Below, piece by piece: positions 42,620 through 60,470 of a DNA stretch of 64,000 bases (its first letter is position 1; each line of letters opens with the position of its first letter). The stretch covers positions 32,001 through 96,000 of the forward strand of contig JBMFRC010000009.1 of NCBI GenBank assembly GCA_049968235.1, in the 5' to 3' direction. A model generated the notes under the pieces. It ran no database searches. It was not told the origin of the DNA and worked only from the letters and a program-made list of their open reading frames with translations. Origin of the DNA: Candidatus Hydrogenedens sp. GTDB lineage: Bacteria > Hydrogenedentota > Hydrogenedentia > Hydrogenedentales > Hydrogenedentaceae. The translations under genes and the position numbers were made by a program.

Positions 42620-44308
42620 TCATTTCACAGTATTTTGAAAATAATCACAACATTTTTTGATTTTCTTTGTCATTAATGTTGAACGCTCATATCCGCCTCG
42701 ATAAATATTTAATGTCTGTTTTGCCAATTCCAGTGGATTACTTCCTTCCAGATTATCTCGTTCAAATTTCGTAACAAGGGTAATAGGTTTTAAATATGAA
42801 TTTAATTCCCCATAGATTCGTATTTGTTCGTCAATTTCGGATAATAATTTAACCTGTTCACGTGCTTTTATAATCTTGCTATCCGCTATAGTATTTTTTA
42901 ATTGTTCTGTAATATGAATTCCCTGTTTATATTTTCCCGCCAATTCCTCAAAAGAATTTCGAAATTCCTTGTTCCATACCGCAAGAGTTTTTGCATCGGG
43001 AGTATTATAAAATTGGAAAAATTTGTGAAGATTATCCGATTCTGTTTGTTTATGGGGATTCACATTAAGATGTTCCAGCCACATTAACCGATAGGCAAAG
43101 CGTAGAAAATCTTTCTCATCAATTTCTCGACGAATAACGGGATAAAATTGCAGACAACCATCGGGAGCAAATTCCGAGATATGAACATTTACATTATCCA
43201 TATCGGGTGTAAGTTCATGCTGAATTAATTGTTTCTTCTTACGCGTGGAGAAAAGCCAATCAATTGCTTTGAGGACCTGCTCAGGTTGTATCTTATCTAA
43301 AGGATGAACATCGGAAGACTTTGAAGAAATATCCATCTTAAAAGAACGTTCTCTCATTTCGATAGCACAATTTCCTACGCCATAGGGACCTGTTTCGCGA
43401 AAATGCACATAGCCAACAGACACAAGCATTACAGGACATTTTACTGCCGATGCAAGATGCATAGTGCCTGTATCATTGGTTACTAATAAATGGGAGCGTT
43501 TTAATAATCCTGCCAACTGTGGAATGGTCGTTTTACCAAAAAGCGGAATTGCCAGACCGGGAACTTCCTTTTGAAATCTTTGACCCAATTCCGCTTCTGA
43601 TGGAATACCTACAAGAAATATCCGTGCCCTGCACTTTTCATGTAACTTTTTCCCTAATTGTGCAAAATATTCCGCAGGCCAACGTTTATTCGTTTCACTG
43701 GCACCCAGTTGCATACATACAACAAAATCTTCGGGTGTAATATGATACTCCGCAAAGAGATGGTCTGTAAATTCCATTGCATTAGAATTCACCTCAAAGG
43801 TGAGTTCTTTTACAGGTTCGGGTATCGGTTCATAGAGTTTGAATATATCGCATAAGTTCAAATCATTATAATCCCGAGAAAGAACGCTGGTAAAGAAGTA
43901 AACCGTCCACGGTCCCCGTAATGTGAATTGCCAATCTTCGGATAAATGTGCCCCGATAACTTTAGGAATTTGTGCCAATTTTAATAACAAAGCGGAAGAT
44001 GTGCTGTGAGTTATGTTATAAGCAATATCAAAGTTCCGTTGTCGTAAATCAAGAATTAACTTTTCTACCTCTTTGTATGCATTTAAATATCGGTCTGAAT
44101 CTCTCGCAATCATATCGGAGAAAATGGGGTCTTCTTGATAAATAATATAATCATTTACATCCGTATTGGCTTTAATAACCTCTTCACTCATTGCCCGTAT
44201 CATAACAGTAATATGGGCATCTGGATATTTAATACGAATCTGACGGAATAGGGGGGTGGTCTGAATTGTATCGCCAATCCTTGCAGTTTGCAAAACAAGT
44301 ATTTTCAC
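42620..44308 (-). CDS. Glycosyltransferase family 9 (heptosyltransferase-like) with ~180-aa C-terminal extension
   Basis: ..MKILVLQTARIGDTIQTTPLF.., ..KRWPAEYFAQLGKKL..IFLVGIPSE.., ..HLLVTNDTGTMHLASAV..PVMLVSVG.. GT9 motifs; 562 aa versus ~330-350 for LPS heptosyltransferases. Confidence 0.7.
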   Translation of the reverse strand: MKILVLQTARIGDTIQTTPLFRQIRIKYPDAHITVMIRAMSEEVIKANTDVNDYIIYQEDPIFSDMIARDSDRYLNAYKEVEKLILDLRQRNFDIAYNITHSTSSALLLKLAQIPKVIGAHLSEDWQFTLRGPWTVYFFTSVLSRDYNDLNLCDIFKLYEPIPEPVKELTFEVNSNAMEFTDHLFAEYHITPEDFVVCMQLGASETNKRWPAEYFAQLGKKLHEKCRARIFLVGIPSEAELGQRFQKEVPGLAIPLFGKTTIPQLAGLLKRSHLLVTNDTGTMHLASAVKCPVMLVSVGYVHFRETGPYGVGNCAIEMRERSFKMDISSKSSDVHPLDKIQPEQVLKAIDWLFSTRKKKQLIQHELTPDMDNVNVHISEFAPDGCLQFYPVIRREIDEKDFLRFAYRLMWLEHLNVNPHKQTESDNLHKFFQFYNTPDAKTLAVWNKEFRNSFEELAGKYKQGIHITEQLKNTIADSKIIKAREQVKLLSEIDEQIRIYGELNSYLKPITLVTKFERDNLEGSNPLELAKQTLNIYRGGYERSTLMTKKIKKCCDYFQNTVK

Positions 44309-44310
44309 AG

Positions 44311-46095
44311 TTATTTCTCCCGTAGCAGATTTTCACCAAAAATACGAACTTCATTCAAATACCAGAATACCTGAACAGGTAATGGAACATTATCATCCAG
44401 AATAGGCAAATGTTTATTAATTTCCTCCTGTAAAAAGGGTATGTCCTGAGGTAGTTTTGCAAGCCATTGTCCCAGAGGGCTATCTTTTCCATATCGTTCG
44501 ATGATTTCTCCTACAGTTCTCTGTATACGCATTCCCTTCCTCATGATTTTTCCACCATAATATTCTTTAATATAATCCAACATTTGATTGGCACGGTGCT
44601 CATAAGTATGCTCTTTTAAAGCCCGTTTTTGTGCATTTTGGGCTATCTGCTTTCTTTCTTCTTCATGTTGCAAAAAATAGTCTATTTTATTCCGAAGTGT
44701 TTTTAAGTCTGTATAGGTAGGGATTTCATTTTGAGTATCAAATAAATTTTCTAATCCCTTACAGGGGTCGCAAAGTTGAAATCCACCTGCTGATGCAATT
44801 TCAAATACGCGGGGATTGATAGCATCAGCCTCCGGGTCAACTCCTTCATGAATGACACTGGAATGAAGGTTTAGGTTAATCTTTGACCCAGCCACAATTT
44901 TCATATATTCTTCTGTATTAAACCCTTTATTCCCTTCTACCACATGAGGGAGCAATTCTAATTCATTCCAGTTTACTCCCCATATTTTTAAGTTGTAATC
45001 AGTTAGTCCTTTTAACATCTTAATACGATTATAATATCCTGCCCCTGCAAAGGATAAATCACACCTGTATTTTTTCTCTTCGTCTGGACTTAAAGAGACA
45101 GGTGCATGAAGTTCCGGATCACATGCGGTAAATATAGGGAAATGGCAATTACAACCAATAGCATCCAATTTGTTATCAAACTCTCCGGGTTGAATATGAA
45201 AAAATAAATTATAAAAAGGTGCTATTTCTTTCCAGTAACTAAGGTGCCGCCAGTTCTCCACAAACCAGAATGCAGTTACAATTCCTCGTTCATTCAATCT
45301 TGAAACAAATAAGTTTGTAACGGGAGCCTGCGCCATAACAATACAAATCTCCGGCTGAAATTCTAATACTTGAGCCAGGCACCATTCAGAAAGAAACTTT
45401 GTATAGAAATCTTCAAGCGAATGAGCAATTCGGGTTGTTTTCAGAGTTTTGCCGATAGCATTAAAGACATTCCACGCTATTTCAGTATCTACAAGAAGTG
45501 TTTGATGACCCAATTTCCGAAAAGCCTGATTTAAATATCGAGTAATAGGAAGAGAACCTCCATACATAGGACCTACAATGGCAATGTTGAAGTGTTGTCG
45601 GTTGAAGCATTCCCGGGATATTCGTTTAATTAACATTTCGCAAAATTCAGGATAAATCCGACTTACAACAGGATGGAAAAAAGGTTGAGGTATTTTATCA
45701 AGATAATCATTGAAGAAAGAATCATTAAAAAGGCAATCTAATGTATCAGGAATGGCAAGTAATAGGTCATCAGGTAATAGATTATTTTGAATGGCTGTAA
45801 ATGCTACGTCTTTATCGGGTTCAATGACAATAATTTTATATTCTTTCTGAATGAGTTCCTGGATATGATAACCCAATCCCAGCCCAACAACAACTACAGG
45901 CCGCTTTTTATCCAGAGAAGAACCTTCTACTAATTTTTTGGCTTCCTCTATGGGATTGTATTGGCTGTGATAAAGAAGTCCTGTTATACGAATTGTTTTT
46001 ATACCTTTGCGTTTTTCGACCAATTCAACGCGTTCACTCCTATAATTTTCAGGAATTTCTTTTCTCCATTCTGCAATAGATTTAAACATCTTCAT
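44311..46095 (-). CDS. Two-domain protein: N-terminal Rossmann-like domain (GLGLGYH motif, possibly Maf/MptE-like) + C-terminal CgeB-family (Glyco_trans_1_2) glycosyltransferase domain
   Basis: ..RPVVVVGLGLGYHIQELIQKEYKIIVIEPDKDVAF..; C-terminal ..KINLNLHS..NPRVFEIASAGGFQLCD.. and ..KEHTYEHRANQMLDYI.. CgeB-like. 2-nt gap to downstream GT9 gene. Confidence 0.55.
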   Translation of the reverse strand: MKMFKSIAEWRKEIPENYRSERVELVEKRKGIKTIRITGLLYHSQYNPIEEAKKLVEGSSLDKKRPVVVVGLGLGYHIQELIQKEYKIIVIEPDKDVAFTAIQNNLLPDDLLLAIPDTLDCLFNDSFFNDYLDKIPQPFFHPVVSRIYPEFCEMLIKRISRECFNRQHFNIAIVGPMYGGSLPITRYLNQAFRKLGHQTLLVDTEIAWNVFNAIGKTLKTTRIAHSLEDFYTKFLSEWCLAQVLEFQPEICIVMAQAPVTNLFVSRLNERGIVTAFWFVENWRHLSYWKEIAPFYNLFFHIQPGEFDNKLDAIGCNCHFPIFTACDPELHAPVSLSPDEEKKYRCDLSFAGAGYYNRIKMLKGLTDYNLKIWGVNWNELELLPHVVEGNKGFNTEEYMKIVAGSKINLNLHSSVIHEGVDPEADAINPRVFEIASAGGFQLCDPCKGLENLFDTQNEIPTYTDLKTLRNKIDYFLQHEEERKQIAQNAQKRALKEHTYEHRANQMLDYIKEYYGGKIMRKGMRIQRTVGEIIERYGKDSPLGQWLAKLPQDIPFLQEEINKHLPILDDNVPLPVQVFWYLNEVRIFGENLLREK

Positions 46096-46120: not shown

Positions 46121-49100
46121 TCATAATGATTCCAATCGTTTTAATTCCTTTCCCAGTACATTATCACTCCCAAATAACGCTATATGCTCCTTTATCATAT
46201 TTACTGCTTCCTTTACCCTGTGATGTTGAGATAGGAAAGTCGAATACTTCAGGATAAGTGAAACATCTCCGGGGTAGAAATCTATAAACGCTTTAATTGT
46301 TTGTTCCGCAGATTCGATATAGCCTAATTGTTCGCATACATAAATATATAGGTCAAGAATCCCCGGATAATCATAACTGTTCGAAAAGGCATAATTTAAG
46401 TGTTTATAAGATTCGTGCATATTCCCTGATTGTAAATATCCCTGTCCCATGGCAAGGTGCAGACGAATATTCTCAGGTTCTTCTTGGAATACTTTTCCCA
46501 ATAATTCTAACGCTGTTTGCGTTTGATTCATTGCTAATAATAGCAGTCCATAATCTATATGTAATTCATTATTTTTTTCAATTTCTAATGCTTTCAGATA
46601 ACATTCTTGTGCTTTTACAAGGTTACCCGTGTGAGCATACGCTTTCCCTTCAATACTGTATCGTTTCCATAGAGGCAAGTCGCTTTCTGTTTTTGCAAGT
46701 TCAAATAACAGGTCCGTTCTCCCTGCTTCCAATAATTTGCGAACCTGTTCATTGATTTCATTTATATCCGAAGGGAGTTTTTGTGCAATAACGATATATT
46801 GGAAGGTGCGGAACACCTCATATTCTTCGTCGCTGATTTTATCAATACAAATTTTACCCATGTGTAAATTCCCATTTTCATCACGGGGTATTATGTCCTC
46901 AGATGCTATGGAAAGAGGTCCAATAGCATTAATCAGGAGACCTGTTTTACGAATAAATTCTTGTAAAGTATCTCTCGTGTAAAATTTCAAATGAGTTATA
47001 TCCTGAATTCCGGAATCACGATAGTCCCACCTCCCAAGAGATAAACCAAAAATAACACCCCAATATTGGACATTAGGAATGCTGATGATAACATAACCAT
47101 ACGGTTTTAGATAACGAATTAAATTTCGCAATGCTTTCTCGGGGTGTTCTGTATGTTCTAATACATCACAACAGGTAATTACATCAAAATAATCATTTTC
47201 AAATGGGAAATCATCCTTCTCAATATTTCCAATAAAAACTTTATCTAAAACCTTTTTGGCAATTTCAGCAATGTCAGGTACAATTTCTATTCCTACCACT
47301 TCCTCCACACCCAATTCACGTTTCATTGCTAATCCAAAATTCCCTGTAGCACAGCCAATATCGAGAACCTTTTTTGTCCCATCGGGAATATATTTTAAGA
47401 CCTCTCTTCTCTCAGAAGAGTAATAGTTTATAGGTTTAATTTCCAATCGTTTCGCTTTTGTTGTATCAATCTTGAAAATTTCCTCTACCTTCTTAATAAT
47501 CTGTTGGCACCTATGGTAATAAGTATGACTCTCTAATACCTTTTGTTGTCCCTGCCTTGCGATTTGCTCTCGTTCCTCTTTATGCTCCAGATAATACCGA
47601 ATTTTTTCAATTAAGTCCTTTTCATTTTCATAAATAACAAGATCTTTACCATCCTCAAACAATTCCAGAATACTATCTGCAGGGTCTGTAACTAGTAAAG
47701 CACCTCCTGCCATACCTTCAAATACTCTCATGTTTAAATCGTAATTAATTGCAGAATTCACAACAATTTTACTTCTTGAATACACTTCCCCCATTTCAAG
47801 AGGCCATTTTTTACCAATATAATGATTTGGAAATATTTCGGCTACTTTCATTAATAACCTTCTTCTTTTATCTCCTTCATCAGGCGATAAACTACCTACA
47901 TAAGAAACATCTATGTCACGAGACAATTCTTTTTGGGGATATAGTTCAGGACAACATGCAAGAGGTAGCCAGAAGACATAACGGACACCCTGCTCCTTAA
48001 AAAGTTTGACATGACTTTGTTGAGCCAGAAACACAATGTCAAAATGCTTTGCTATTTCCAACCGTGTTTGAAAGTCCAGGTGGGTATCAATAAGATACGC
48101 CACACGAGGAATATTGAGCATGTCTATCATAGGGTCAACTGTTTTAAGACCGGAATCAACATAGATATAAAAATCTGATGGATATCCTGATGGAATACCT
48201 GCTAAAAGATTCTCTATGCGTTTATCGCCAAAGGAGGTAGGAATCCTTTGCGGAGGATATGGTGGAGGATTTTGAAATCCCCACTTATATAACAAATCTT
48301 CAGGACATCGAAAACCCGATGTTATAACATCATGGTCTTTTTCAAAGGCAAATTCAAAATATCGGGCTGTTGTGTGGGGTGAAGTTATATAATCTAATAT
48401 AATGCGATAGTGCTTTTTCGCTGTTGATGGTTTTGTTATCTGAATAGAAGTGGTTTCTTTTCCACTTTGTTTCAATATTATCTTCTGCCAATTATCAACA
48501 AATTGAGATATAGGAAATTTCTTTTGAACAGTTTCTCTACCTCGTGTTCCTATTTCCCTGGCTAAGTCCGGATTTCCTAAGAGGAGTTCCAGATATTTGC
48601 GTAGCTGTGCTGGGTCAAAAGAAGTAAAGCCATCTACTCCATTTGTAATAGGAGAAGAACGATTGTTTAGAGCAACCACTGGCATACCACAAGCCATTGC
48701 CTCTAATGTAGAAAGATTATATCCATCTTCAAATTCCTGACGGGTGATATGTAATAGACAGCGGTTCAAACGATATGCAGACAGCAATTCTTCAAAGTTT
48801 ATAGATGGCTTTGAATTTTCAACCCCCGGATTTTCTCCCACAATAATATTGGGTAATCCCTTGCAGAGAGCCTCCTGTAATGGGAAATCAAACATCCAGT
48901 TCCGCACCTGCATATAATTGCCTACTCGCAAAATTACTTCTTTACTCCCCGCATAGCCTCCATATTCTTCTATATCAATTCCGGGTAGAACCACATACCC
49001 CGGATAACCATAATCATCTCTTTTAGAAGGGGAAATAAATACGAAAGTGAATCGTTCAGATAGGATATTTATGACCTTCTCAAAATTATTAACAACAAAA

Positions 49101-49426
49101 ACATCGTTCTTTGGGAGTGTTGTTTTCAGATAGGTTTTTCTGTTATGACATACAAGAATTTTAGGGCAATTTGCTTCGCGAATATCCCAGGCATTTGTTT
49201 CATTATGTGCAATAACAATATCATAATAGCCTTTAAAAACTCGTTCCCGCCACTCATTTTCAGGGACTTCATGTAAATTTTCAGGTATAGGTCGAAATTC
49301 CGTTTTCCACTTTCGAGCAAGCAGTCCCTCGCTATATAACCCCAAATCCATCTCAAACCCTGTTTTTGCCATCAAACACATGTAAGGCTCATGAAAATTA
49401 AAGGTTAAGATTTTAAGTTGTCCCAT
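46121..49426 (-). CDS. 1101-aa multidomain protein: GT-B (GT4-like) glycosyltransferase + CgeB-family glycosyltransferase + class I SAM-dependent methyltransferase + C-terminal TPR repeats
   Basis: ..EDGYNLSTLEAMACGMPVVA.. (GT4 C-terminal motif); ..NMRVFEGMAGGALLVTD..KVLESHTYYHRCQQII.. (CgeB); ..KVLDIGCATGNFGL..FDVITCCDVLEHTEHPEKAL..LKPYGYVIISIPN.. (methyltransferase motifs I-III); TPR-like helical repeats in the last ~250 aa. Confidence 0.7.
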   Translation of the reverse strand: MGQLKILTFNFHEPYMCLMAKTGFEMDLGLYSEGLLARKWKTEFRPIPENLHEVPENEWRERVFKGYYDIVIAHNETNAWDIREANCPKILVCHNRKTYLKTTLPKNDVFVVNNFEKVINILSERFTFVFISPSKRDDYGYPGYVVLPGIDIEEYGGYAGSKEVILRVGNYMQVRNWMFDFPLQEALCKGLPNIIVGENPGVENSKPSINFEELLSAYRLNRCLLHITRQEFEDGYNLSTLEAMACGMPVVALNNRSSPITNGVDGFTSFDPAQLRKYLELLLGNPDLAREIGTRGRETVQKKFPISQFVDNWQKIILKQSGKETTSIQITKPSTAKKHYRIILDYITSPHTTARYFEFAFEKDHDVITSGFRCPEDLLYKWGFQNPPPYPPQRIPTSFGDKRIENLLAGIPSGYPSDFYIYVDSGLKTVDPMIDMLNIPRVAYLIDTHLDFQTRLEIAKHFDIVFLAQQSHVKLFKEQGVRYVFWLPLACCPELYPQKELSRDIDVSYVGSLSPDEGDKRRRLLMKVAEIFPNHYIGKKWPLEMGEVYSRSKIVVNSAINYDLNMRVFEGMAGGALLVTDPADSILELFEDGKDLVIYENEKDLIEKIRYYLEHKEEREQIARQGQQKVLESHTYYHRCQQIIKKVEEIFKIDTTKAKRLEIKPINYYSSERREVLKYIPDGTKKVLDIGCATGNFGLAMKRELGVEEVVGIEIVPDIAEIAKKVLDKVFIGNIEKDDFPFENDYFDVITCCDVLEHTEHPEKALRNLIRYLKPYGYVIISIPNVQYWGVIFGLSLGRWDYRDSGIQDITHLKFYTRDTLQEFIRKTGLLINAIGPLSIASEDIIPRDENGNLHMGKICIDKISDEEYEVFRTFQYIVIAQKLPSDINEINEQVRKLLEAGRTDLLFELAKTESDLPLWKRYSIEGKAYAHTGNLVKAQECYLKALEIEKNNELHIDYGLLLLAMNQTQTALELLGKVFQEEPENIRLHLAMGQGYLQSGNMHESYKHLNYAFSNSYDYPGILDLYIYVCEQLGYIESAEQTIKAFIDFYPGDVSLILKYSTFLSQHHRVKEAVNMIKEHIALFGSDNVLGKELKRLESL

Positions 49427-49465: not shown

Positions 49466-50104
49466 TTAGGTTGTTTTAATAATATATTGGATTGCCAATT
49501 GTTTTAACTGACCCACGATTTCAGGTTCTTTTTCTGCAAGAGGAGCTAATTCATATTCCAGCAAGTCCCCAAGACCAATACAATCGTTATTTTCGAGAGA
49601 TTTATATGCTTCCTCAAGAACATGATTCAATTCGTCATGATGTTCTTTTATCTTCCTTATAATAGGATTCTCTTCCGTTACATGGGAACTCAATATATTG
49701 ATTATAAGTGCCTCTCTTTTTTTAATTTCACTCCATATCTCCGAAAGTTTCTGAAAAGGGTCAAATCCTTCATCCGGATTTTCACTCTGAAATACCCGAG
49801 CAATTTCACAACATAAATCACTTAATTCCGGTGAATATAATTCCAAATCCGCAATACCTTCCTCCACCAATTGGTAAATTGGATAGGTATTAATTTCTAA
49901 TGTCCGTATATTAGAGATATTCATTTCTTGAATAGATTCTAATGACCTACCGGGATATACTTCTTGCTCATTAACTCTTAACTTTACCATTGCCAGTTGT
50001 TGACTATTAAGAAAATTCATAATCTCGTTCAGAGCCGATTGAAGTGTATCCGGCGAATTGGAAAATTGAAATCCTTTTACTCCATCAATGAGCACTTCCA
50101 TCAC
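49466..50104 (-). CDS. Hypothetical acidic protein co-transcribed downstream of csrA
   Basis: 212-aa ORF overlapping the csrA stop by ~20 nt; 39 nt upstream of the big GT/MTase gene; no recognisable domain. Confidence 0.4.
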
Positions 50105-50336
50105 GGGGGTCTCCTTTGTTGGGTTGGAAAACGGGAATATCCTTCGGGGGTTCTACCCGTGCTGCCTCTTCATTTTCCGCTTTGATTGATAGATATACCT
50201 CTTTCCGATGAACAGGAATAGAACGCGGTGCTTCTATCCCTATTTTGACCTGATTTTCCCGTAATTCAAGCACTTTGATTTCGATATTATCGCCAATCAT
50301 TATGCTTTCATCTTCCTTACGCGTAAGCACAAGCAT
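50085..50336 (-). CDS. csrA: Carbon storage regulator CsrA (flagellin translation regulator)
   Basis: [48 protein letters not shown] is canonical CsrA; AGGAGG RBS; start 1 nt after the fliW stop. Confidence 0.9.
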
Positions 50337-50337
50337 A

Positions 50338-50796
50338 TTAGACCTCCTGTCTATTAGTTGGTTGTTCATTTTGGGGTTGCGCAAGGAACCATTGAACAGG
50401 GTAATCCGTTCTGTCCAATACCATTTGCTTTGCTAACCTTGTTTTTGTATTTATTACAATGGGGGCTCTTAAATTTGTCCGGATTTTGGTCGGGTCTTCC
50501 GGAACCACAAGTAATGTATATATGGAAATCTCCTGAGGAGAATCGGCTTGTAATTCATGTAAATCCTGGGGAGTAAAAGAAACCTGATAATCTGGCAAAA
50601 CCTGCAAAGGTTCTAACAAAAGAAAAGCCAATGCACCATCTTCTATAGACTGAAGCCACCAAAGAGGGCTATCTTTAGGTCCTGGCAATAACATAAACTT
50701 CTGACAATTCTGAAATCCTAAAATAGGTTTTACAAATAGAAGAATTTGATTCTCATCAATTTCTATCTCACCGAATCGTGTTGTTTGTAGTTTCAT
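50338..50796 (-). CDS. fliW: Flagellar assembly factor FliW
   Basis: ..[46 protein letters not shown].. and ..[20 protein letters not shown].. match FliW. Start taken at internal MKLQTT; the ORF track extends upstream to 50943. Confidence 0.85.
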
Positions 50797-51460
50797 ATAA
50801 TTCTGTTCATTCCTTTTTGTTTTCAGTATGCAATATTTTATTTTACAATAACAACTCATTATTATAAAAATGTGTAATATCAAATAAACATTTGTAAAAT
50901 ATATCGATATATAATATAATTTACACTTAAATGTTAACATCAAGGAAGTAGTGTGTTTGGAGAAGAAAACCAGATATTGATAAAGGAGATGTTAAGATGC
51001 GACATACTGAAAAAGTAAATGATTAAAAAGAATATAATGCGTTTAAAGAACTTATAAAAGAAAACTTATCAAGGCAGTGGATGATGAGGATTATGAACGG
51101 TTGAAGTTCATATTCTCTATGTTAGAAATGCTTTTCCAGATAAAGGAAAGACTTAATATTTCAGAGAAAGAGAGCAATGAGTTTGATGAACAAGAATTAG
51201 AAGTGATAGAGACGGAAACAGGCAAAGATGTTAAAAAGAACAGAAAGAAAAGAAGTAAACCCTCAGAGGATAAAAAGGATGAAATTCAAGAAACGAAAGA
51301 AGATATGGGTAAAGAAAATATAATTGAAGAAGAGGAAGATGTAATTAAAAAAGAAGCGGTAACATAGGAAGAGGAGAAATCATCAAAGAAAAAGCAATCT
51401 CCACCAGAGAAATTAGCTCGCGGTTTAAAAACACCTGAAAGAGCCTATGTCCTACCGGTA

Positions 51461-51868
51461 GTGGATTCCTTAATGGAATTTGGGGGAACTGCTCCTCGAA
51501 AAGAAGTTGTCACAAGGGTATTTGAAAAAATGAAACATATCTTAAAAGATTATGATTTAGAACCCATGTCATACAATAAATATGTCCCTCGCTGGAAAGA
51601 TACTTTACATTGGGTAAGATTACACTTACTTGAAAGGGGAATCCTTGAGAAAGGAACTGAAAAAGGTATTTGGACTTTAACAGAATATGGTAAAGCCTAT
51701 TACGCTATGCACAAAGATAGAACAGAAGAAAAGAAAGAGGTTGATATTCCTCCATACTCCGAAAAAAGTGAAGAAATGACTAGTGAAGGAACTTTTTCTG
51801 CTCCCGAAAAGCAGGAAGAAAATATAGAACATAACATTAGTGAACCAAGAGATATCTTAAATCAGTAG
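51461..51868 (+). CDS. Winged-helix (Mrr_N-like) domain protein, probably N-terminally truncated; in frame with upstream ORF 51077..51367 across a single TAG
   Basis: ..YVLPVVDSLMEFGGTAPRKEVVTRVFEKMKHIL..VPRWKDTLHWVRLHLLERGILEKGTEKGIWTLTEYG.. matches the Mrr N-terminal wHTH. The first conserved strand (AYVLPVV) lies upstream of the GTG at 51461. TAG at 51365-51367 is in frame. Confidence 0.45.
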   Translation: MDSLMEFGGTAPRKEVVTRVFEKMKHILKDYDLEPMSYNKYVPRWKDTLHWVRLHLLERGILEKGTEKGIWTLTEYGKAYYAMHKDRTEEKKEVDIPPYSEKSEEMTSEGTFSAPEKQEENIEHNISEPRDILNQ

Positions 51869-51954
51869 ATAGAAATTATAGAATAAAAAATAAATCCCGA
51901 TAATTTTACCTCTTTCCCAGAAATACAATCCTTTATTGACATGAAAGTATATCC

Positions 51955-51991
51955 ATAAAAAAGCCTCTCGTAAAAAGAGAGGCTTTTTTAT
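51955..51991. terminator. Bidirectional rho-independent terminator
   Basis: AAGCCTCTC-gtaaaaa-GAGAGGCTT flanked by A6 upstream and T6 downstream; serves the +strand wHTH gene and the -strand tRNA. Confidence 0.55.
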
Positions 51992-52077
51992 GGTGCCCGG
52001 GAGGAGAATTGAACTCCTACCCCATTTCTGGGACCAGATCCTTAGTCTGGCGCGTCTGCCATTTCCGCCACCCGGGC
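51991..52077 (-). tRNA. tRNA-Leu (type II, long variable arm) with apparent anticodon AAG
   Basis: Revcomp folds as GCCCGGG/CCCGGGC acceptor, Leu-type D-arm (UGGCGGAAAUGGCAGACGC), anticodon stem CCAGA/UCUGG with loop CUAAGGA, variable arm CCCAGAAAUGGG, T-arm AGGAG-UUCAAUU-CUCCU, discriminator A and encoded CCA. The annotation track put a spurious ORF (51857..52081) here. Confidence 0.7.
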
Positions 52078-52458: not shown

Positions 52459-53187
52459 TTAGAGTTTAATACCATGTTCTTTAGCAACGAGAATATTAGA
52501 ACGGAGCAGTGCTTCGAAACTACCACAATCTGCCCACCAACCTTCTAAAACTTCATAAGTCATTGTTCCCCGTCGAATATACTCATTATTTACATCTGTT
52601 ATTTCCAATTCACCACGTGCACTGGGTTTCAATGTCTTACAAATGTTAAACACATCCGCATCATACATATATATTCCGATGACTGCATAATGGGTCGGTG
52701 GAACTTTAGGTTTTTCTATAATCTCTTTCACTTTTCCATTCTCTACTATAGCAACCCCAAATTCCTGGGGATTGGGGACTTCTTTTAAAAAAATCTTTGC
52801 ACCGCAATCTTGTTTTTCAAAATCATCTACTGCATTCTTGATACTACCCTGCGTAAAGTTATCACCAAGGATAACTACCACTTTATCTCCACCAACAAAT
52901 GGTTCTGCAAGTTTAAGAGCATGAGCAATTCCCCCCTCTGTTTTCTGATAAGTATAATGAAGTTGATGTAATCCAAAATCTTCACCATTCCCTAATAACC
53001 GAAGAAAATCTCCCGCATTATTCCCACCTGTAACTATCATAATATCTTTAATACCCGCATCTACAAGTGTTTGTATAGGATAAAAAATCATAGGTTTGTT
53101 ATATACAGGCAATAAGTGCTTATTAGTTACGCGAGTTAATGGTAATAATCTTGTTCCTAAACCTCCAGCCAGGACAACACCTTTCAT
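52459..53187 (-). CDS. Sugar-1-phosphate nucleotidyltransferase (short RmlA/NTP_transferase family)
   Basis: ..MKGVVLAGGLGTRLLPLTRVTNKHLLPV.. signature; 242 aa. Confidence 0.8.
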   Translation of the reverse strand: MKGVVLAGGLGTRLLPLTRVTNKHLLPVYNKPMIFYPIQTLVDAGIKDIMIVTGGNNAGDFLRLLGNGEDFGLHQLHYTYQKTEGGIAHALKLAEPFVGGDKVVVILGDNFTQGSIKNAVDDFEKQDCGAKIFLKEVPNPQEFGVAIVENGKVKEIIEKPKVPPTHYAVIGIYMYDADVFNICKTLKPSARGELEITDVNNEYIRRGTMTYEVLEGWWADCGSFEALLRSNILVAKEHGIKL

Positions 53188-58420: not shown

Positions 58421-58702
58421 TTAGGGTTTTATTGTCATTTTTAAAAACCTTTTGCATGTAGGGGCATCACAACGAAAGTCAATAGGAATTACATTACCTT
58501 TTCGAGCCTGGTTAATAATATCTAAATATATCTGTTTTACAGTCATATTTTGAATAAAATCAAATAAATTTTTGCCCAAAATCTTCTTGGATATAATTTC
58601 CTCCCCAAAATTATTTAAAGCGAAACGGTCCCATTCTTCATTGACAAAAATAATGTTTTTTTCTGTATCAATTTTATATTCAATTGGGTTCATGTTAGTC
58701 AT
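58421..58702 (-). CDS. Small PAS-like domain protein (hypothetical)
   Basis: 93 aa from ATG (MTNMNPIEYK..) with AAGGA upstream; ..IIFVNEEWDRFALNNFGEEIISKKILGKNLFDFI.. PAS-like. The longer track ORF 58421..58954 runs into tRNA-Cys and is rejected. Confidence 0.35.
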   Translation of the reverse strand: MTNMNPIEYKIDTEKNIIFVNEEWDRFALNNFGEEIISKKILGKNLFDFIQNMTVKQIYLDIINQARKGNVIPIDFRCDAPTCKRFLKMTIKP

Positions 58703-58807
58703 CCTTTTATGGGTGTATAATACCCGGTTTATATAAATATTCTCTATATTTGAATTATGCCACCTTTTCTTTGTAAAATTAAACCACCATGATAATGGTG
58801 GCGGCAT

Positions 58808-58882
58808 GGCGGCATGGCCAAGTGGTAAGGCAGAAGCCTGCAAAGCTTCCATTCCCCGGTTCGAATCCGGGTGCCGCCTCCA
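58808..58882 (+). tRNA. tRNA-Cys (GCA)
   Basis: Acceptor GGCGGCA/UGCCGCC, anticodon stem GAAGC/GCUUC with loop CUGCAAA, T-arm CCCGG-UUCGAAU-CCGGG, encoded CCA. Confidence 0.85.
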
Positions 58883-58895
58883 TCTATTTCGTCGT

Positions 58896-58979
58896 GGGCG
58901 AGTGGTGGAATAGGAATACACGACGGACTTAAAATCCGTTGGCCGTAAGGCCATGCGGGTTCGATTCCCGCCTCGCCCA
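58896..58979 (+). tRNA. tRNA-Leu (UAA), type II
   Basis: Acceptor GGGCGAG/CUCGCCC, anticodon stem ACGGA/UCCGU with loop CUUAAAA, long variable arm GGCCGUAAGGCC, T-arm GCGGG-UUCGAUU-CCCGC; CCA not encoded; followed by T6. Confidence 0.8.
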
Positions 58980-59072
58980 CTTTTTTATTTTTACCTCTCT
59001 TTTTATATAATCTTTGACAGAGGGTTTTCCCAGCCTAACATATAAAAATTAAGTCCAAAAGGATATACCGAA

Positions 59073-60470
59073 ATGGCAGTATGTTTTTTTAATACTATGA
59101 ACCGAAAATTAGAACCGTTTATCCCCTTAGAACCACCTAAAGTAAAACTTTATACATGTGGACCGACCGTTTATAATTTCGCTCATATTGGGAATTTTCG
59201 TGCGTACATCTTTGAGGATTTACTAAAACGTTATCTCAAATTTCGCGGCTATAATGTATTTCATGTTATGAATATTACGGATGTAGAAGATAAATTAATA
59301 CGCACATGTCGCGAAACAGGAAAGTCCCTCAAAGAGATTACGGATTTTTACATTGAAGCCTTTTTTAAAGACCTTGATACCCTTCAAATTGAAAGGGCAG
59401 ATATTTATCCGCGTGCTACGGAACATATACCGGAAATGGTAGCGATTATTAAAAAATTAAAAGAAAAGGGACATACCTACGAACATGAAGGAAGTATTTA
59501 TTTCCGTCTGAGTACTTTTCCAGAATACGGAAAATTAAGTCATATGAACATCGAAGAGTTAAAAGTCGGTGCTAGTGGCAGGGTAGATAGCGATGAATAT
59601 ACTATGGAAGATGCCCGTGATTTTGCACTCTGGAAAGCATGGGATGAAGAGGATGGCAATGTATTTTGGGAAACGGAACTTGGAAAAGGCAGGCCCGGCT
59701 GGCATATCGAGTGTTCTGCCATGAGTATGAAATATCTCGGAGAAAGTTTTGATATTCATTGTGGGGGTATAGATAATATGTTCCCCCATCACGAAAACGA
59801 AATAGCACAATCCGAATGTGCAACCGGGCAACCTTTTGTCAAATATTGGCTCCATTGTGCCCATCTGGTTGTTGATGGTAAAAAAATGTCAAAATCATTA
59901 GGGAACTTTTATACGCTACGAGACCTCCTGGAACGCGGTCTGGAACCTCTTGCTATTCGATGGGTACTCCTCGCTACACATTATCGCCAACCCAATAACT
60001 TTACCTTTGAAACGGTGGAATCTGCTTCCAGCAGTATTCGGCGAATACGCGATTTCCGTTTGCGTCTCAAAGAAATTAAGGGAAGTGGGGACGAACTAAT
60101 GGAAGAATGTTCCCAATGTGAGAAATTATTTATAGATGCACTGGATGATGACTTAAATATTTCATCTGCTCTTGGTGTTTTGTTCGATTTTATAAGAGAT
60201 GTTAATAAAAAAATAGATAACGGCGAAGTGGGGGAGAAGGGGGCTCATAACGCTATCAATCTTCTTAACAAGTTAAACCAGATAACAGGACTATTCAACC
60301 CAGATATGGAAGATGAAATTCCAGCTGAAGTATTGGAAAAAGTTATGCAGAGGCAACAAGCACGGAGAGAAAAAAACTTCACTCTGGCTGATACAATCCG
60401 CAATCAATTACTTGAACAGGGTTGGGTTATTGAAGATACACCTCAAGGTCCACGCGTAAAACGAAAATAA
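59073..60470 (+). CDS. cysS: Cysteinyl-tRNA synthetase
   Basis: HIGH (..FAHIGNFR..) and KMSKS motifs, class I CysRS zinc-site Cys/His pattern; 465 aa. Confidence 0.95.
   Translation: MAVCFFNTMNRKLEPFIPLEPPKVKLYTCGPTVYNFAHIGNFRAYIFEDLLKRYLKFRGYNVFHVMNITDVEDKLIRTCRETGKSLKEITDFYIEAFFKDLDTLQIERADIYPRATEHIPEMVAIIKKLKEKGHTYEHEGSIYFRLSTFPEYGKLSHMNIEELKVGASGRVDSDEYTMEDARDFALWKAWDEEDGNVFWETELGKGRPGWHIECSAMSMKYLGESFDIHCGGIDNMFPHHENEIAQSECATGQPFVKYWLHCAHLVVDGKKMSKSLGNFYTLRDLLERGLEPLAIRWVLLATHYRQPNNFTFETVESASSSIRRIRDFRLRLKEIKGSGDELMEECSQCEKLFIDALDDDLNISSALGVLFDFIRDVNKKIDNGEVGEKGAHNAINLLNKLNQITGLFNPDMEDEIPAEVLEKVMQRQQARREKNFTLADTIRNQLLEQGWVIEDTPQGPRVKRK

What the first reader, a model, noticed from the sequence alone, without database searches (positions are those of the whole stretch)
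51991..52077. tRNA-Leu with an A34 anticodon (AAG)
The minus-strand tRNA is a well-formed type II Leu tRNA, but its anticodon loop reads CUAAGGA, giving anticodon AAG. Bacterial Leu isoacceptors normally carry C, G or U at position 34. A34 is usually restricted to tRNA-Arg(ACG), which TadA deaminates to inosine. A34 tRNA-Leu has been reported in only a few bacterial lineages. It implies either an expanded TadA substrate range or direct A34 decoding of CUU.
Basis: partly seen in the sequence, partly recalled or inferred. Interest (0 to 1): 0.5.

Follow-up and report, generated by a model that had tools for sequence, protein, structure and literature searches.

The report
A34 leucine tRNA in Hydrogenedentota
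A real, conserved leucine tRNA gene with the rare anticodon AAG sits in a genome of the uncultured phylum Hydrogenedentota, so a wobble-inosine decoding trick proven so far only in lactic acid bacteria probably occurs in other phyla too.

Summary
Window 51991-52077 (-) encodes a well-formed type II tRNA-Leu with anticodon loop CUAAGGA, anticodon AAG and A34. ARAGORN and Rfam (52.6 bits) agree. It has a promoter-like element, an encoded CCA and an intrinsic terminator.

It is neither a base-call error nor a fresh mutation. The same A34 gene sits at the same position, between an RmlA-like gene and fliW-csrA, in every related assembly that keeps this gene order (neighbour protein 95% to 83% identical). 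The tRNA body shows compensatory stem changes while the loop stays invariant.

Marker proteins place the window in Candidatus Hydrogenedens (phylum Hydrogenedentota). That is far from the Lactobacillales, where tRNA-Leu(AAG) is known and shown to be deaminated to I34 by an adapted TadA.

The loop fits the Streptococcus TadA consensus YUAMGRA exactly. CUC codons are not avoided in the window. A high-GC lineage (Planctomycetota-type) keeps the same anticodon arm although CUU is only 5% of its Leu codons.

Most likely the tRNA is read as IAG and decodes CUU, CUC and perhaps CUA.

I34 itself, the TadA gene and the absence of tRNA-Leu(GAG) could not be tested from 64 kb.

Verdict: new member of a known kind, moderate interest.

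The parts
51991..52077 (-). tRNA-Leu(AAG) gene: type II tRNA, 87 nt including the encoded CCA, discriminator A73
   Evidence: ARAGORN. Rfam RF00005 at 52.6 bits. The fold gives a cloverleaf. Covariation across 13 distinct homologues shows compensatory changes in 12 of 26 pairs.
52039..52045 (-). Anticodon loop C32-U33-A34-A35-G36-G37-A38. The anticodon AAG is 52043-52041 and the wobble A34 is at 52043.
   Evidence: Sequence read directly. Rfam alignment. The loop is invariant in all 38 AAG tRNA-Leu copies held. It fits the S. pyogenes TadA consensus YUAMGRA (PMC11472039).
52101..52130 (-). Sigma-70-like promoter candidate TTTAAA-N18-TAGAAT, ending 24 nt upstream of the tRNA 5' end
   Evidence: Consensus scan. 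The block is conserved in window, L123 and L125, and partly in L127, while the flanking sequence has diverged. Function is inferred.
51953..51993 (-). Intrinsic terminator directly after the CCA. The hairpin AAAAAAGCCUCUC...GAGAGGCUUUUUU has an A-run and a U-run, so it could also end the convergent + strand gene.
   Evidence: Terminator scan: 17 pairs, 7 of them G-C. L125 has a different hairpin plus T-run at the same place.
52459..53187 (-). RmlA-like sugar-phosphate nucleotidyltransferase, the conserved upstream neighbour used as the synteny anchor
   Evidence: NCBIfam rmlA_long 2.5e-74, below the curated cut-off. It is 95% identical to a 'Candidatus Hydrogenedens sp.' protein.
50085..50943 (-). 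fliW-csrA pair, the conserved downstream neighbours of the tRNA
   Evidence: NCBIfam FliW. Pfam FliW and CsrA on the called genes in L001 and L123-L129.
58808..58980 (+). tRNA-Cys(GCA) and tRNA-Leu(UAA), the only other tRNAs in the window, directly upstream of cysS
   Evidence: ARAGORN. Rfam at 67.1 and 61.5 bits. cysS at 59073-60470.

Best explanation
This is a functional, independently transcribed, vertically inherited tRNA-Leu gene of a Candidatus Hydrogenedens-like bacterium (phylum Hydrogenedentota). It is encoded with A at the wobble position.

The most likely mechanism has three steps. The transcript is charged by LeuRS, which does not read the anticodon. G37 is presumably methylated. 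A34 is deaminated to inosine by the organism's TadA, which must tolerate A35 and G37 instead of the C35 and A37 of tRNA-Arg(ACG). The mature tRNA-Leu(IAG) then reads CUU and CUC, and possibly CUA, taking over the role that tRNA-Leu(GAG) has in most bacteria.

Shown here: the gene, its structure, its conservation, its lineage, the loop's fit to the known expanded-TadA motif, and normal use of CUC.

Inferred: expression, the I34 modification, the adapted TadA, and the absence of a GAG isoacceptor.
For: Gene and structure.

Not an error: the identical A34 tRNA is present in independent NCBI, JGI, ENA and Logan assemblies.

Selection on A34:
- The tRNA sits at the syntenic site in all relatives that keep the RmlA-like...fliW order, from 95% down to 83% neighbour-protein identity.
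- The body diverges by loop changes and a compensatory C-G to U-A stem pair.
- Over 13 distinct AAG tRNAs from at least three lineages, 12 of 26 pairs show compensatory changes and the loop CUAAGGA is invariant.

Expression signals: a conserved promoter-like block and maintained terminators.

Lineage: named EF-G relatives at about 70% identity are Hydrogenedentes. The RmlA-like protein is 95% identical to a Candidatus Hydrogenedens sp. protein.

I34 model:
- The loop matches the YUAMGRA motif of S. pyogenes TadA, which fully edits tRNA-Leu(AAG) in vivo and in vitro (PMC11472039).
- I34 in tRNA-Leu(AAG) is also validated in S. mutans and S. pneumoniae and was first shown in O. oeni (PMC13249217).
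- CUC is used normally: 121 codons, C/(C+U) = 0.26, like other pyrimidine pairs.
- High-GC genomes carrying the same anticodon arm use CUC for 45.6% and CUU for only 5.4% of Leu codons. A CUU-only reader would be nearly useless there.
Against: - No TadA gene is in the window or in any of the roughly 170 held loci. Its presence and specificity are untested.
- E. coli TadA does not edit S. pyogenes tRNA-Leu(AAG) (PMC11472039). Changes at loop positions 32, 37 or 38 block E. coli TadA on an AAG-anticodon tRNA (PMC11066159). Deamination therefore requires an adapted enzyme and cannot be assumed.
- O. oeni has four A34 tRNAs, of which only two are modified (PMC11066159). A34 does not guarantee I34.
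- Only 64 kb of the genome was seen. A tRNA-Leu(GAG) or tRNA-Leu(UAG) elsewhere could cover CUC, which would weaken the codon-usage argument.
- The high-GC argument carries over to this genome only by analogy.
Confidence: 0.75

Rival explanations
1. A34 stays unmodified. The tRNA reads CUU by standard A-U pairing, perhaps with weak reading of other CUN codons as Mycoplasma tRNA-Thr(AGU) does. CUC is decoded by another isoacceptor elsewhere in the genome, either GAG or a U34 tRNA.
For: Unmodified A34 tRNAs exist in bacteria: two of the four A34 tRNAs of O. oeni and Mycoplasma tRNA-Thr (PMC11066159). CUU is the commonest CUN codon in the window, 351 of 797. TadA specificity is narrow in E. coli. 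No TadA was seen.
Against: In every bacterium where tRNA-Leu(AAG) was examined it is I34. The loop fits the expanded TadA motif exactly. The same anticodon arm is conserved in high-GC genomes where CUU is only 5% of Leu codons. In Lactobacillales the AAG and GAG genes are mutually exclusive.
Confidence: 0.15
2. The A at position 34 is an artefact (base-call or assembly error of a tRNA-Leu(GAG)), or a recent inactivating mutation in a decaying gene.
For: None beyond the rarity of the anticodon.
Against: The identical A34 occurs in many independent assemblies and in diverged orthologues, with compensatory stem changes and an intact cloverleaf. No G34 version of this tRNA body was found among 35 metagenome matches and about 120 genome matches.
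Confidence: 0.01
3. The tRNA is cargo of a phage or other mobile element, so it does not belong to the host's core decoding set.
For: Large viral contigs carry tRNA-Leu(AAG) with the same anticodon arm inside tRNA arrays. Gene content just 3' of the tRNA varies between relatives: Mrr_N-like and unknown genes.
Against: The tRNA itself is at a fixed chromosomal position between housekeeping and flagellar genes in all syntenic relatives. GC content around it matches the rest of the window. No integrase or phage genes are adjacent. The viral tRNAs have different acceptor stems and T arms.
Confidence: 0.03

Closest known systems
[quoted passage not shown]
   Same: - Type II tRNA-Leu encoded with A34 and anticodon AAG.
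- The loop fits YUAMGRA, with A35 and G37.
- AT-rich genome with UUA as the dominant Leu codon and CUU more common than CUC.
- A34 is conserved across a clade.
   Different: - The host is a diderm, flagellated member of the uncultured phylum Hydrogenedentota (FCB group), not Bacillota.
- I34, the TadA variant and the absence of the GAG isoacceptor are not shown here.
- The tRNA's anticodon stem (CCAGA/UCUGG) and 5' half are otherwise found only with U34, never G34, in the two scans. This hints at a different evolutionary route.
tRNA-Arg(ACG) to ICG, the canonical bacterial TadA substrate
   Same: An A34 tRNA whose loop begins C32-U33-A34 and has G36 and A38. One I34 tRNA would read the U-, C- and A-ending codons of a four-codon box.
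   Different: Position 35 is A rather than C, and position 37 is G rather than A. These are the positions at which E. coli TadA is intolerant. The amino acid, the type II architecture and the anticodon stem sequence all differ.
Unmodified A34 tRNAs (Mycoplasma tRNA-Thr(AGU); the two unmodified A34 tRNAs of O. oeni)
   Same: A34 is encoded in a bacterial tRNA other than tRNA-Arg.
   Different: Those occur in reduced genomes, or in tRNAs whose loops TadA does not accept. Here relatives sit on contigs of 0.5-1.4 Mb and the loop matches the accepted motif.
Eukaryotic tRNA-Leu(AAG) modified by ADAT2/3
   Same: Same anticodon, and the same I34 decoding logic replacing G34.
   Different: The eukaryotic enzyme is a heterodimer that needs the whole tRNA. 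Bacterial TadA is a homodimer that reads the anticodon loop. There is no evidence for an ADAT-like enzyme here.

Membership tests
Bacterial tRNA-Leu(AAG)/I34 tRNAs (TadA-dependent, Lactobacillales type) | Type II tRNA with leucine identity: long variable arm and discriminator A73 | tested here: met
   ARAGORN calls Leu. The sequence shows a 15-nt variable arm and A73. Rfam alignment. Covariation.
Bacterial tRNA-Leu(AAG)/I34 tRNAs (TadA-dependent, Lactobacillales type) | Genomically encoded A at position 34, anticodon AAG | tested here: met
   Reproduced in independent assemblies.
Bacterial tRNA-Leu(AAG)/I34 tRNAs (TadA-dependent, Lactobacillales type) | Anticodon loop compatible with the expanded TadA recognition motif YUAMGRA (positions 32-38) | tested here: met
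   The loop is CUAAGGA. The motif comes from PMC11472039.
Bacterial tRNA-Leu(AAG)/I34 tRNAs (TadA-dependent, Lactobacillales type) | A34 is actually deaminated to inosine in the cell | not testable with these tools
   This needs tRNA-seq, RNase T1 or an in vitro TadA assay. Only indirect support is available, from codon usage.
Bacterial tRNA-Leu(AAG)/I34 tRNAs (TadA-dependent, Lactobacillales type) | The genome encodes a TadA able to accept A35 and G37 | not testable with these tools
   No CDA-motif ORF in the window. No TadA homologue in the window or in about 170 held loci.
Bacterial tRNA-Leu(AAG)/I34 tRNAs (TadA-dependent, Lactobacillales type) | tRNA-Leu(GAG) is absent from the same genome (AAG and GAG are mutually exclusive in Lactobacillales) | tested here: inconclusive
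   There is no GAG tRNA in the 64-kb window or in the 20-kb syntenic loci. That is only a small fraction of the genome.
Bacterial tRNA-Leu(AAG)/I34 tRNAs (TadA-dependent, Lactobacillales type) | Host belongs to a lineage where the tRNA has been reported (Bacilli; also listed for Mycoplasma and Prochlorococcus) | tested here: not met
   EF-G and the RmlA-like protein point to Candidatus Hydrogenedens, phylum Hydrogenedentota. This is a matter of distribution, not of mechanism.
Unmodified-A34 'superwobble' tRNAs of reduced genomes (Mycoplasma tRNA-Thr(AGU) type) | Minimal tRNA set, reduced genome and loss or irrelevance of TadA | tested here: inconclusive
   Relatives lie on contigs up to 1.4 Mb. 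A separate tRNA-Leu(UAA) is present. CGU, CGC and CGA are all in use. These argue against a minimal set, but the full tRNA complement was not seen.

The most novel reading that the evidence does not exclude
In Hydrogenedentota and in the Planctomycetota-type lineage, the AAG gene did not arise from tRNA-Leu(GAG) by a G-to-A transition. It arose from a tRNA-Leu(UAG) gene by U34-to-A34. Its anticodon stem and 5' half are otherwise found only with U34 (118 of 121 genome hits and 10 of 35 metagenome hits; none with G34 or C34).

If so, tRNA-Leu(IAG) plus tRNA-Leu(CAG) may decode the whole CUN box with two tRNAs, as ICG plus CCG do for arginine. Both the GAG and the UAG isoacceptors would have been lost. 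This would be an independent, convergent expansion of TadA specificity in phyla unrelated to Bacillota.
Probability: 0.2. Interest if true: 0.55.

Novelty: new member of a known kind. Interest (0 to 1): 0.4.

Why it matters
Wobble inosine outside tRNA-Arg was long considered essentially eukaryotic. In bacteria it has been proven only in a few Lactobacillales, and published surveys place almost all tRNA-Leu(AAG) genes in the class Bacilli.

A conserved A34 tRNA-Leu in Hydrogenedentota, and apparently in Planctomycetota-type genomes and some giant phages, would have three consequences:

- The expansion of TadA's substrate range would have happened repeatedly, or would be older and wider than thought.
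- There would be new natural experiments on how an I34 tRNA reshapes leucine codon usage, in both AT-rich and GC-rich genomes.
- It would point to naturally relaxed TadA variants. These are of practical interest because TadA is the scaffold of adenine base editors.

For annotating this genome, the practical point is that CUC, and perhaps CUA, are probably read by this tRNA.

Tried and rejected
- **Genome-collection scan.** I searched with the anticodon arm and position 34 left free. It still gave the 118 U34 to 3 A34 tally.
- **TadA search.** A regex for the deaminase motif in all six frames of the window found nothing. So did phmmer with E. coli TadA, recalled from memory as a probe, against six-frame ORFs of the window and 169 loci.
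- **More distant Hydrogenedentota loci.** L130-L133 (77-81% neighbour identity) have lost the synteny and carry no tRNA nearby. They say nothing about how deep A34 goes in the phylum.
- **blastn against E. coli genomes.** The tRNA gave no match. I fetched leuU and leuW by coordinates instead.
- **Literature.** PMC6103674 (Rafels-Ybern 2018) is not held. The supplement of PMC13249217 has no genus list in text form. Searches for Hydrogenedentes or Planctomycetota together with A34 or inosine found nothing relevant. That is absence from the held library only.
- **Rejected explanations.** Base-call error, pseudogene and mis-called anticodon are refuted. Mobile-element cargo is unlikely because the chromosomal position is fixed.
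- **Not attempted.** I did not compare Leu codon usage between AAG-bearing and other Hydrogenedentota. Their tRNA content is unknown and their GC content differs.

Full report
**1. The observation**

ARAGORN finds three tRNAs in the window. One is tRNA-Leu(aag) at 51991-52077 on the minus strand.

Read directly, the gene has:
- a 7-bp acceptor stem (GCCCGGG/CCCGGGC);
- the 3-bp D stem typical of bacterial Leu tRNAs;
- a 5-bp anticodon stem (CCAGA/UCUGG);
- the loop C32-U33-A34-A35-G36-G37-A38;
- a 15-nt variable arm and a standard T arm;
- discriminator A73 and an encoded CCA.

The Rfam tRNA model aligns it over its full length at 52.6 bits against a gathering score of 29, with AAG at positions 34-36. 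The default whole-window Rfam scan did not list it. The permissive scan did, so the miss was a filter artefact. The single-sequence fold gives the cloverleaf. The wobble base is window coordinate 52043.

**2. Not an error, not a decaying gene**

The neighbouring RmlA-like protein occurs with an identical sequence in two NCBI MAGs, and both carry the identical tRNA.

I took homologues of that protein at graded identity and fetched their contigs. Every locus that keeps the order RmlA-like gene ... fliW-csrA has a tRNA-Leu(AAG) at the same place:

| Locus | Neighbour-protein identity |
|---|---|
| L123, L124 | 95% |
| L125, L126 | 91% |
| L127 | 89% |
| L128, L129 | 83% |

Four more distant loci (77-81%) have lost the synteny and are uninformative.

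The tRNA body has diverged in these relatives. L127 has three loop substitutions and no encoded CCA. L128 and L129 have a compensatory C-G to U-A change in the anticodon stem, a G-C to G-U change in the acceptor stem and a T-loop change. The anticodon loop is unchanged in all of them.

A promoter-like TTTAAA-N18-TAGAAT block lies 24 nt upstream. It is conserved in window, L123 and L125 while the surrounding sequence is not. A strong hairpin plus U-run follows the CCA. L125 has a different terminator hairpin at the same position.

The gene therefore looks like a monocistronic, expressed unit under purifying selection.

**3. Whose genome**

The window is 35-40% GC. It encodes flagellar proteins (FliF, FliW, CsrA), an LPS heptosyltransferase homologue, DprA, CysRS and EF-G.

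All named relatives of EF-G, at about 70% identity, are 'Candidatus Hydrogenedentes/Hydrogenedentota' apart from one labelled Nitrospiraceae. The RmlA-like protein is 95% identical to one from 'Candidatus Hydrogenedens sp.', and many further hits carry the phylum name. NCBI taxonomy places the genus in phylum Candidatus Hydrogenedentota, FCB group.

This is an uncultured phylum unrelated to Bacillota.

**4. What is known**

In bacteria I34 is found almost universally in tRNA-Arg(ACG) and rarely in tRNA-Leu(AAG) (PMC8266599). The main published facts are:

- I34 in tRNA-Leu(AAG) was first shown in Oenococcus oeni, as cited in PMC11472039.
- In S. pyogenes the tRNA is fully edited. S. pyogenes TadA edits it in vitro but E. 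coli TadA does not. The recognition motif widens from the Arg loop to YUAMGRA.
- A 2026 study validated I34 in S. mutans and S. pneumoniae. [quoted passage not shown] It noted AAG genes also in Mycoplasma and Prochlorococcus, and showed that an AAG-to-GAG mutant is viable but less fit (PMC13249217).
- E. coli TadA can edit an AAG anticodon only in an Arg-like loop. Changes at positions 32, 37 or 38 block it. In O. oeni only two of four A34 tRNAs are modified (PMC11066159).

I found nothing in the held library on A34 tRNAs in Hydrogenedentota or Planctomycetota.

**5. Mechanism**

The window's loop, CUAAGGA, is an exact instance of YUAMGRA.

Over 18,041 codons from the window, the Leu counts are:

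| Codon | UUA | UUG | CUU | CUC | CUA | CUG |
|---|---|---|---|---|---|---|
| Count | 697 | 297 | 351 | 121 | 158 | 167 |

The C fraction of the CUY pair (0.26) equals that of the Phe, Asp and Cys pairs. CUC is therefore not avoided and must be read efficiently.

A second line of evidence comes from the metagenome scan. I used this tRNA's acceptor stem, D arm and anticodon arm with position 34 left free. It returned 35 matches: 25 with A34, 10 with U34, none with G34 or C34.

The A34 set falls into two groups:
- a low-GC group (35-38% GC) with the Hydrogenedens-type tRNA body;
- a high-GC group (58-71% GC) whose body matches an NCBI MAG labelled Planctomycetaceae (L095).

In the high-GC loci CUC is 45.6% and CUU only 5.4% of Leu codons. 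A conserved tRNA that read only CUU would be nearly useless there, whereas an IAG tRNA would read the dominant codon.

By analogy, and given the identical anticodon stem-loop, I consider deamination to I34 by an adapted TadA the most likely mechanism for the window's tRNA, at about 0.75.

The inferred steps are the presence and specificity of TadA, the modification itself, and the absence of tRNA-Leu(GAG). No TadA homologue was found in the window or in any held locus.

**6. An unexpected detail on origin**

In the saturated genome-collection scan, the D-stem and anticodon-arm sequence of this tRNA was found with U34 in 118 cases and with A34 in 3 genome loci. It was never found with G34 or C34. 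The lineage-anchored metagenome scan showed the same pattern.

L166 (A34) and L152 (U34) are identical outside position 34 and the variable arm. The anticodon stem CCAGA/UCUGG is also that of E. coli leuW (UAG). E. coli leuU (GAG) has CUACC/GGUAG.

This suggests, but does not show, that these AAG genes derive from UAG-type genes. If so, IAG plus CAG might decode the whole CUN box as ICG plus CCG do for arginine. No Leu(GAG) or Leu(UAG) gene from Hydrogenedentota was available for a direct comparison.

**7. Rivals**

- **Unmodified A34 reading CUU, about 0.15.** This remains possible because TadA specificity is narrow and not every bacterial A34 tRNA is edited.
- **Artefact or pseudogene.** Refuted.
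- **Mobile-element cargo.** Unlikely. The chromosomal position is fixed and the composition is uniform. However, gene content just 3' of the tRNA varies, and some large viral contigs do carry tRNA-Leu(AAG).

**8. Verdict**

The feature is a new member of a known kind: a tRNA-Leu(AAG), probably IAG, in a phylum where it had not been reported. There is evidence that such tRNAs are more widely distributed than published surveys of cultured genomes indicate.

Interest is moderate at 0.4. The phenomenon and its mechanism are already established in Lactobacillales. The phylogenetic breadth, the likely independent origin and the implied new TadA specificities are worth a follow-up that needs only whole-MAG tRNA scans and existing metatranscriptomes.

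Noticed in passing
L095:3265-3353; L043:644-730; L040:7282-7366; metagenome loci L136, L137, L139-L142, L145, L148, L151, L153-L156, L159, L167, L168: tRNA-Leu(AAG) with the same anticodon stem-loop occurs in high-GC contigs (58-71% GC). It also occurs in NCBI MAGs labelled Planctomycetaceae, Planctomycetota and 'Deltaproteobacteria'. In these loci CUC is 46% and CUU 5% of Leu codons. Published surveys place almost all such genes in Bacilli.
   Followed up: partly
L172:11464-14490; L173:3-4990; L174:454-730; L175:1045-1321; L171, L176, L177: Seven IMG/VR viral contigs, several of 165-416 kb, carry tRNA-Leu(AAG). L172 has a 17-tRNA array that also includes Arg(ACG), Pro(AGG) (another A34 anticodon) and Leu(UAG). 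L173 has Leu(AAG), Leu(CAG) and Leu(CAA) side by side. This contrasts with the statement in PMC8007984 that phage tRNAs lack the 'prohibited' ANN anticodons.
   Followed up: no
window 52027-52061 (D-stem 3' strand and anticodon arm); L003-L122; L152; L170:1464-1548: The D-stem and anticodon-arm sequence of this AAG tRNA is otherwise found only in tRNA-Leu(UAG): 118 of 121 genome hits, with no G34 or C34. Its anticodon stem equals that of E. coli leuW(UAG), not leuU(GAG). The AAG gene may derive from a UAG gene.
   Followed up: partly
window 51077-51868; L123:11353-12474; L125:11112-12017: The stretch between the tRNA's 3' end and fliW varies among close relatives. The window has a 96-aa ORF plus a Mrr_N-like ORF. 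L123 has an unrelated 373-aa gene. L125 has a 301-aa Mrr_N protein. L127 and L128 have nothing. This may be a small insertion hotspot next to the tRNA.
   Followed up: no
window 58808-60470; L123:3179-4841; L147:146-605: tRNA-Cys(GCA) and tRNA-Leu(UAA) sit directly upstream of cysS (cysteine--tRNA ligase), an arrangement conserved in L123-L127. In L147 the Leu(AAG), Cys(GCA) and Leu(UAA) genes are clustered within 460 nt.
   Followed up: no
window 51991-52077: The default Rfam gathering-threshold scan of the whole 64-kb window did not report this tRNA. It scores 52.6 bits against a gathering score of 29 in a local scan or a permissive whole-window scan. This is a speed-filter false negative, worth remembering for pipeline scans.
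   Followed up: yes
window 46121-49426 (-), with 44311-46095 and 42620-44308: Downstream of fliW-csrA lies a 1101-aa protein combining two GT4-like glycosyltransferase regions, a SAM methyltransferase domain and TPR repeats. It is followed by another glycosyltransferase and a heptosyltransferase-family (GT9) gene. The set is conserved in L123-L128 and may be a flagellin glycosylation module.
   Followed up: no
window 58421-58954 (-): A 177-aa ORF on the minus strand overlaps the tRNA-Cys and tRNA-Leu(UAA) genes. It is most likely spurious, although a 180-aa gene is called at the equivalent place in L125 and L126.
   Followed up: no
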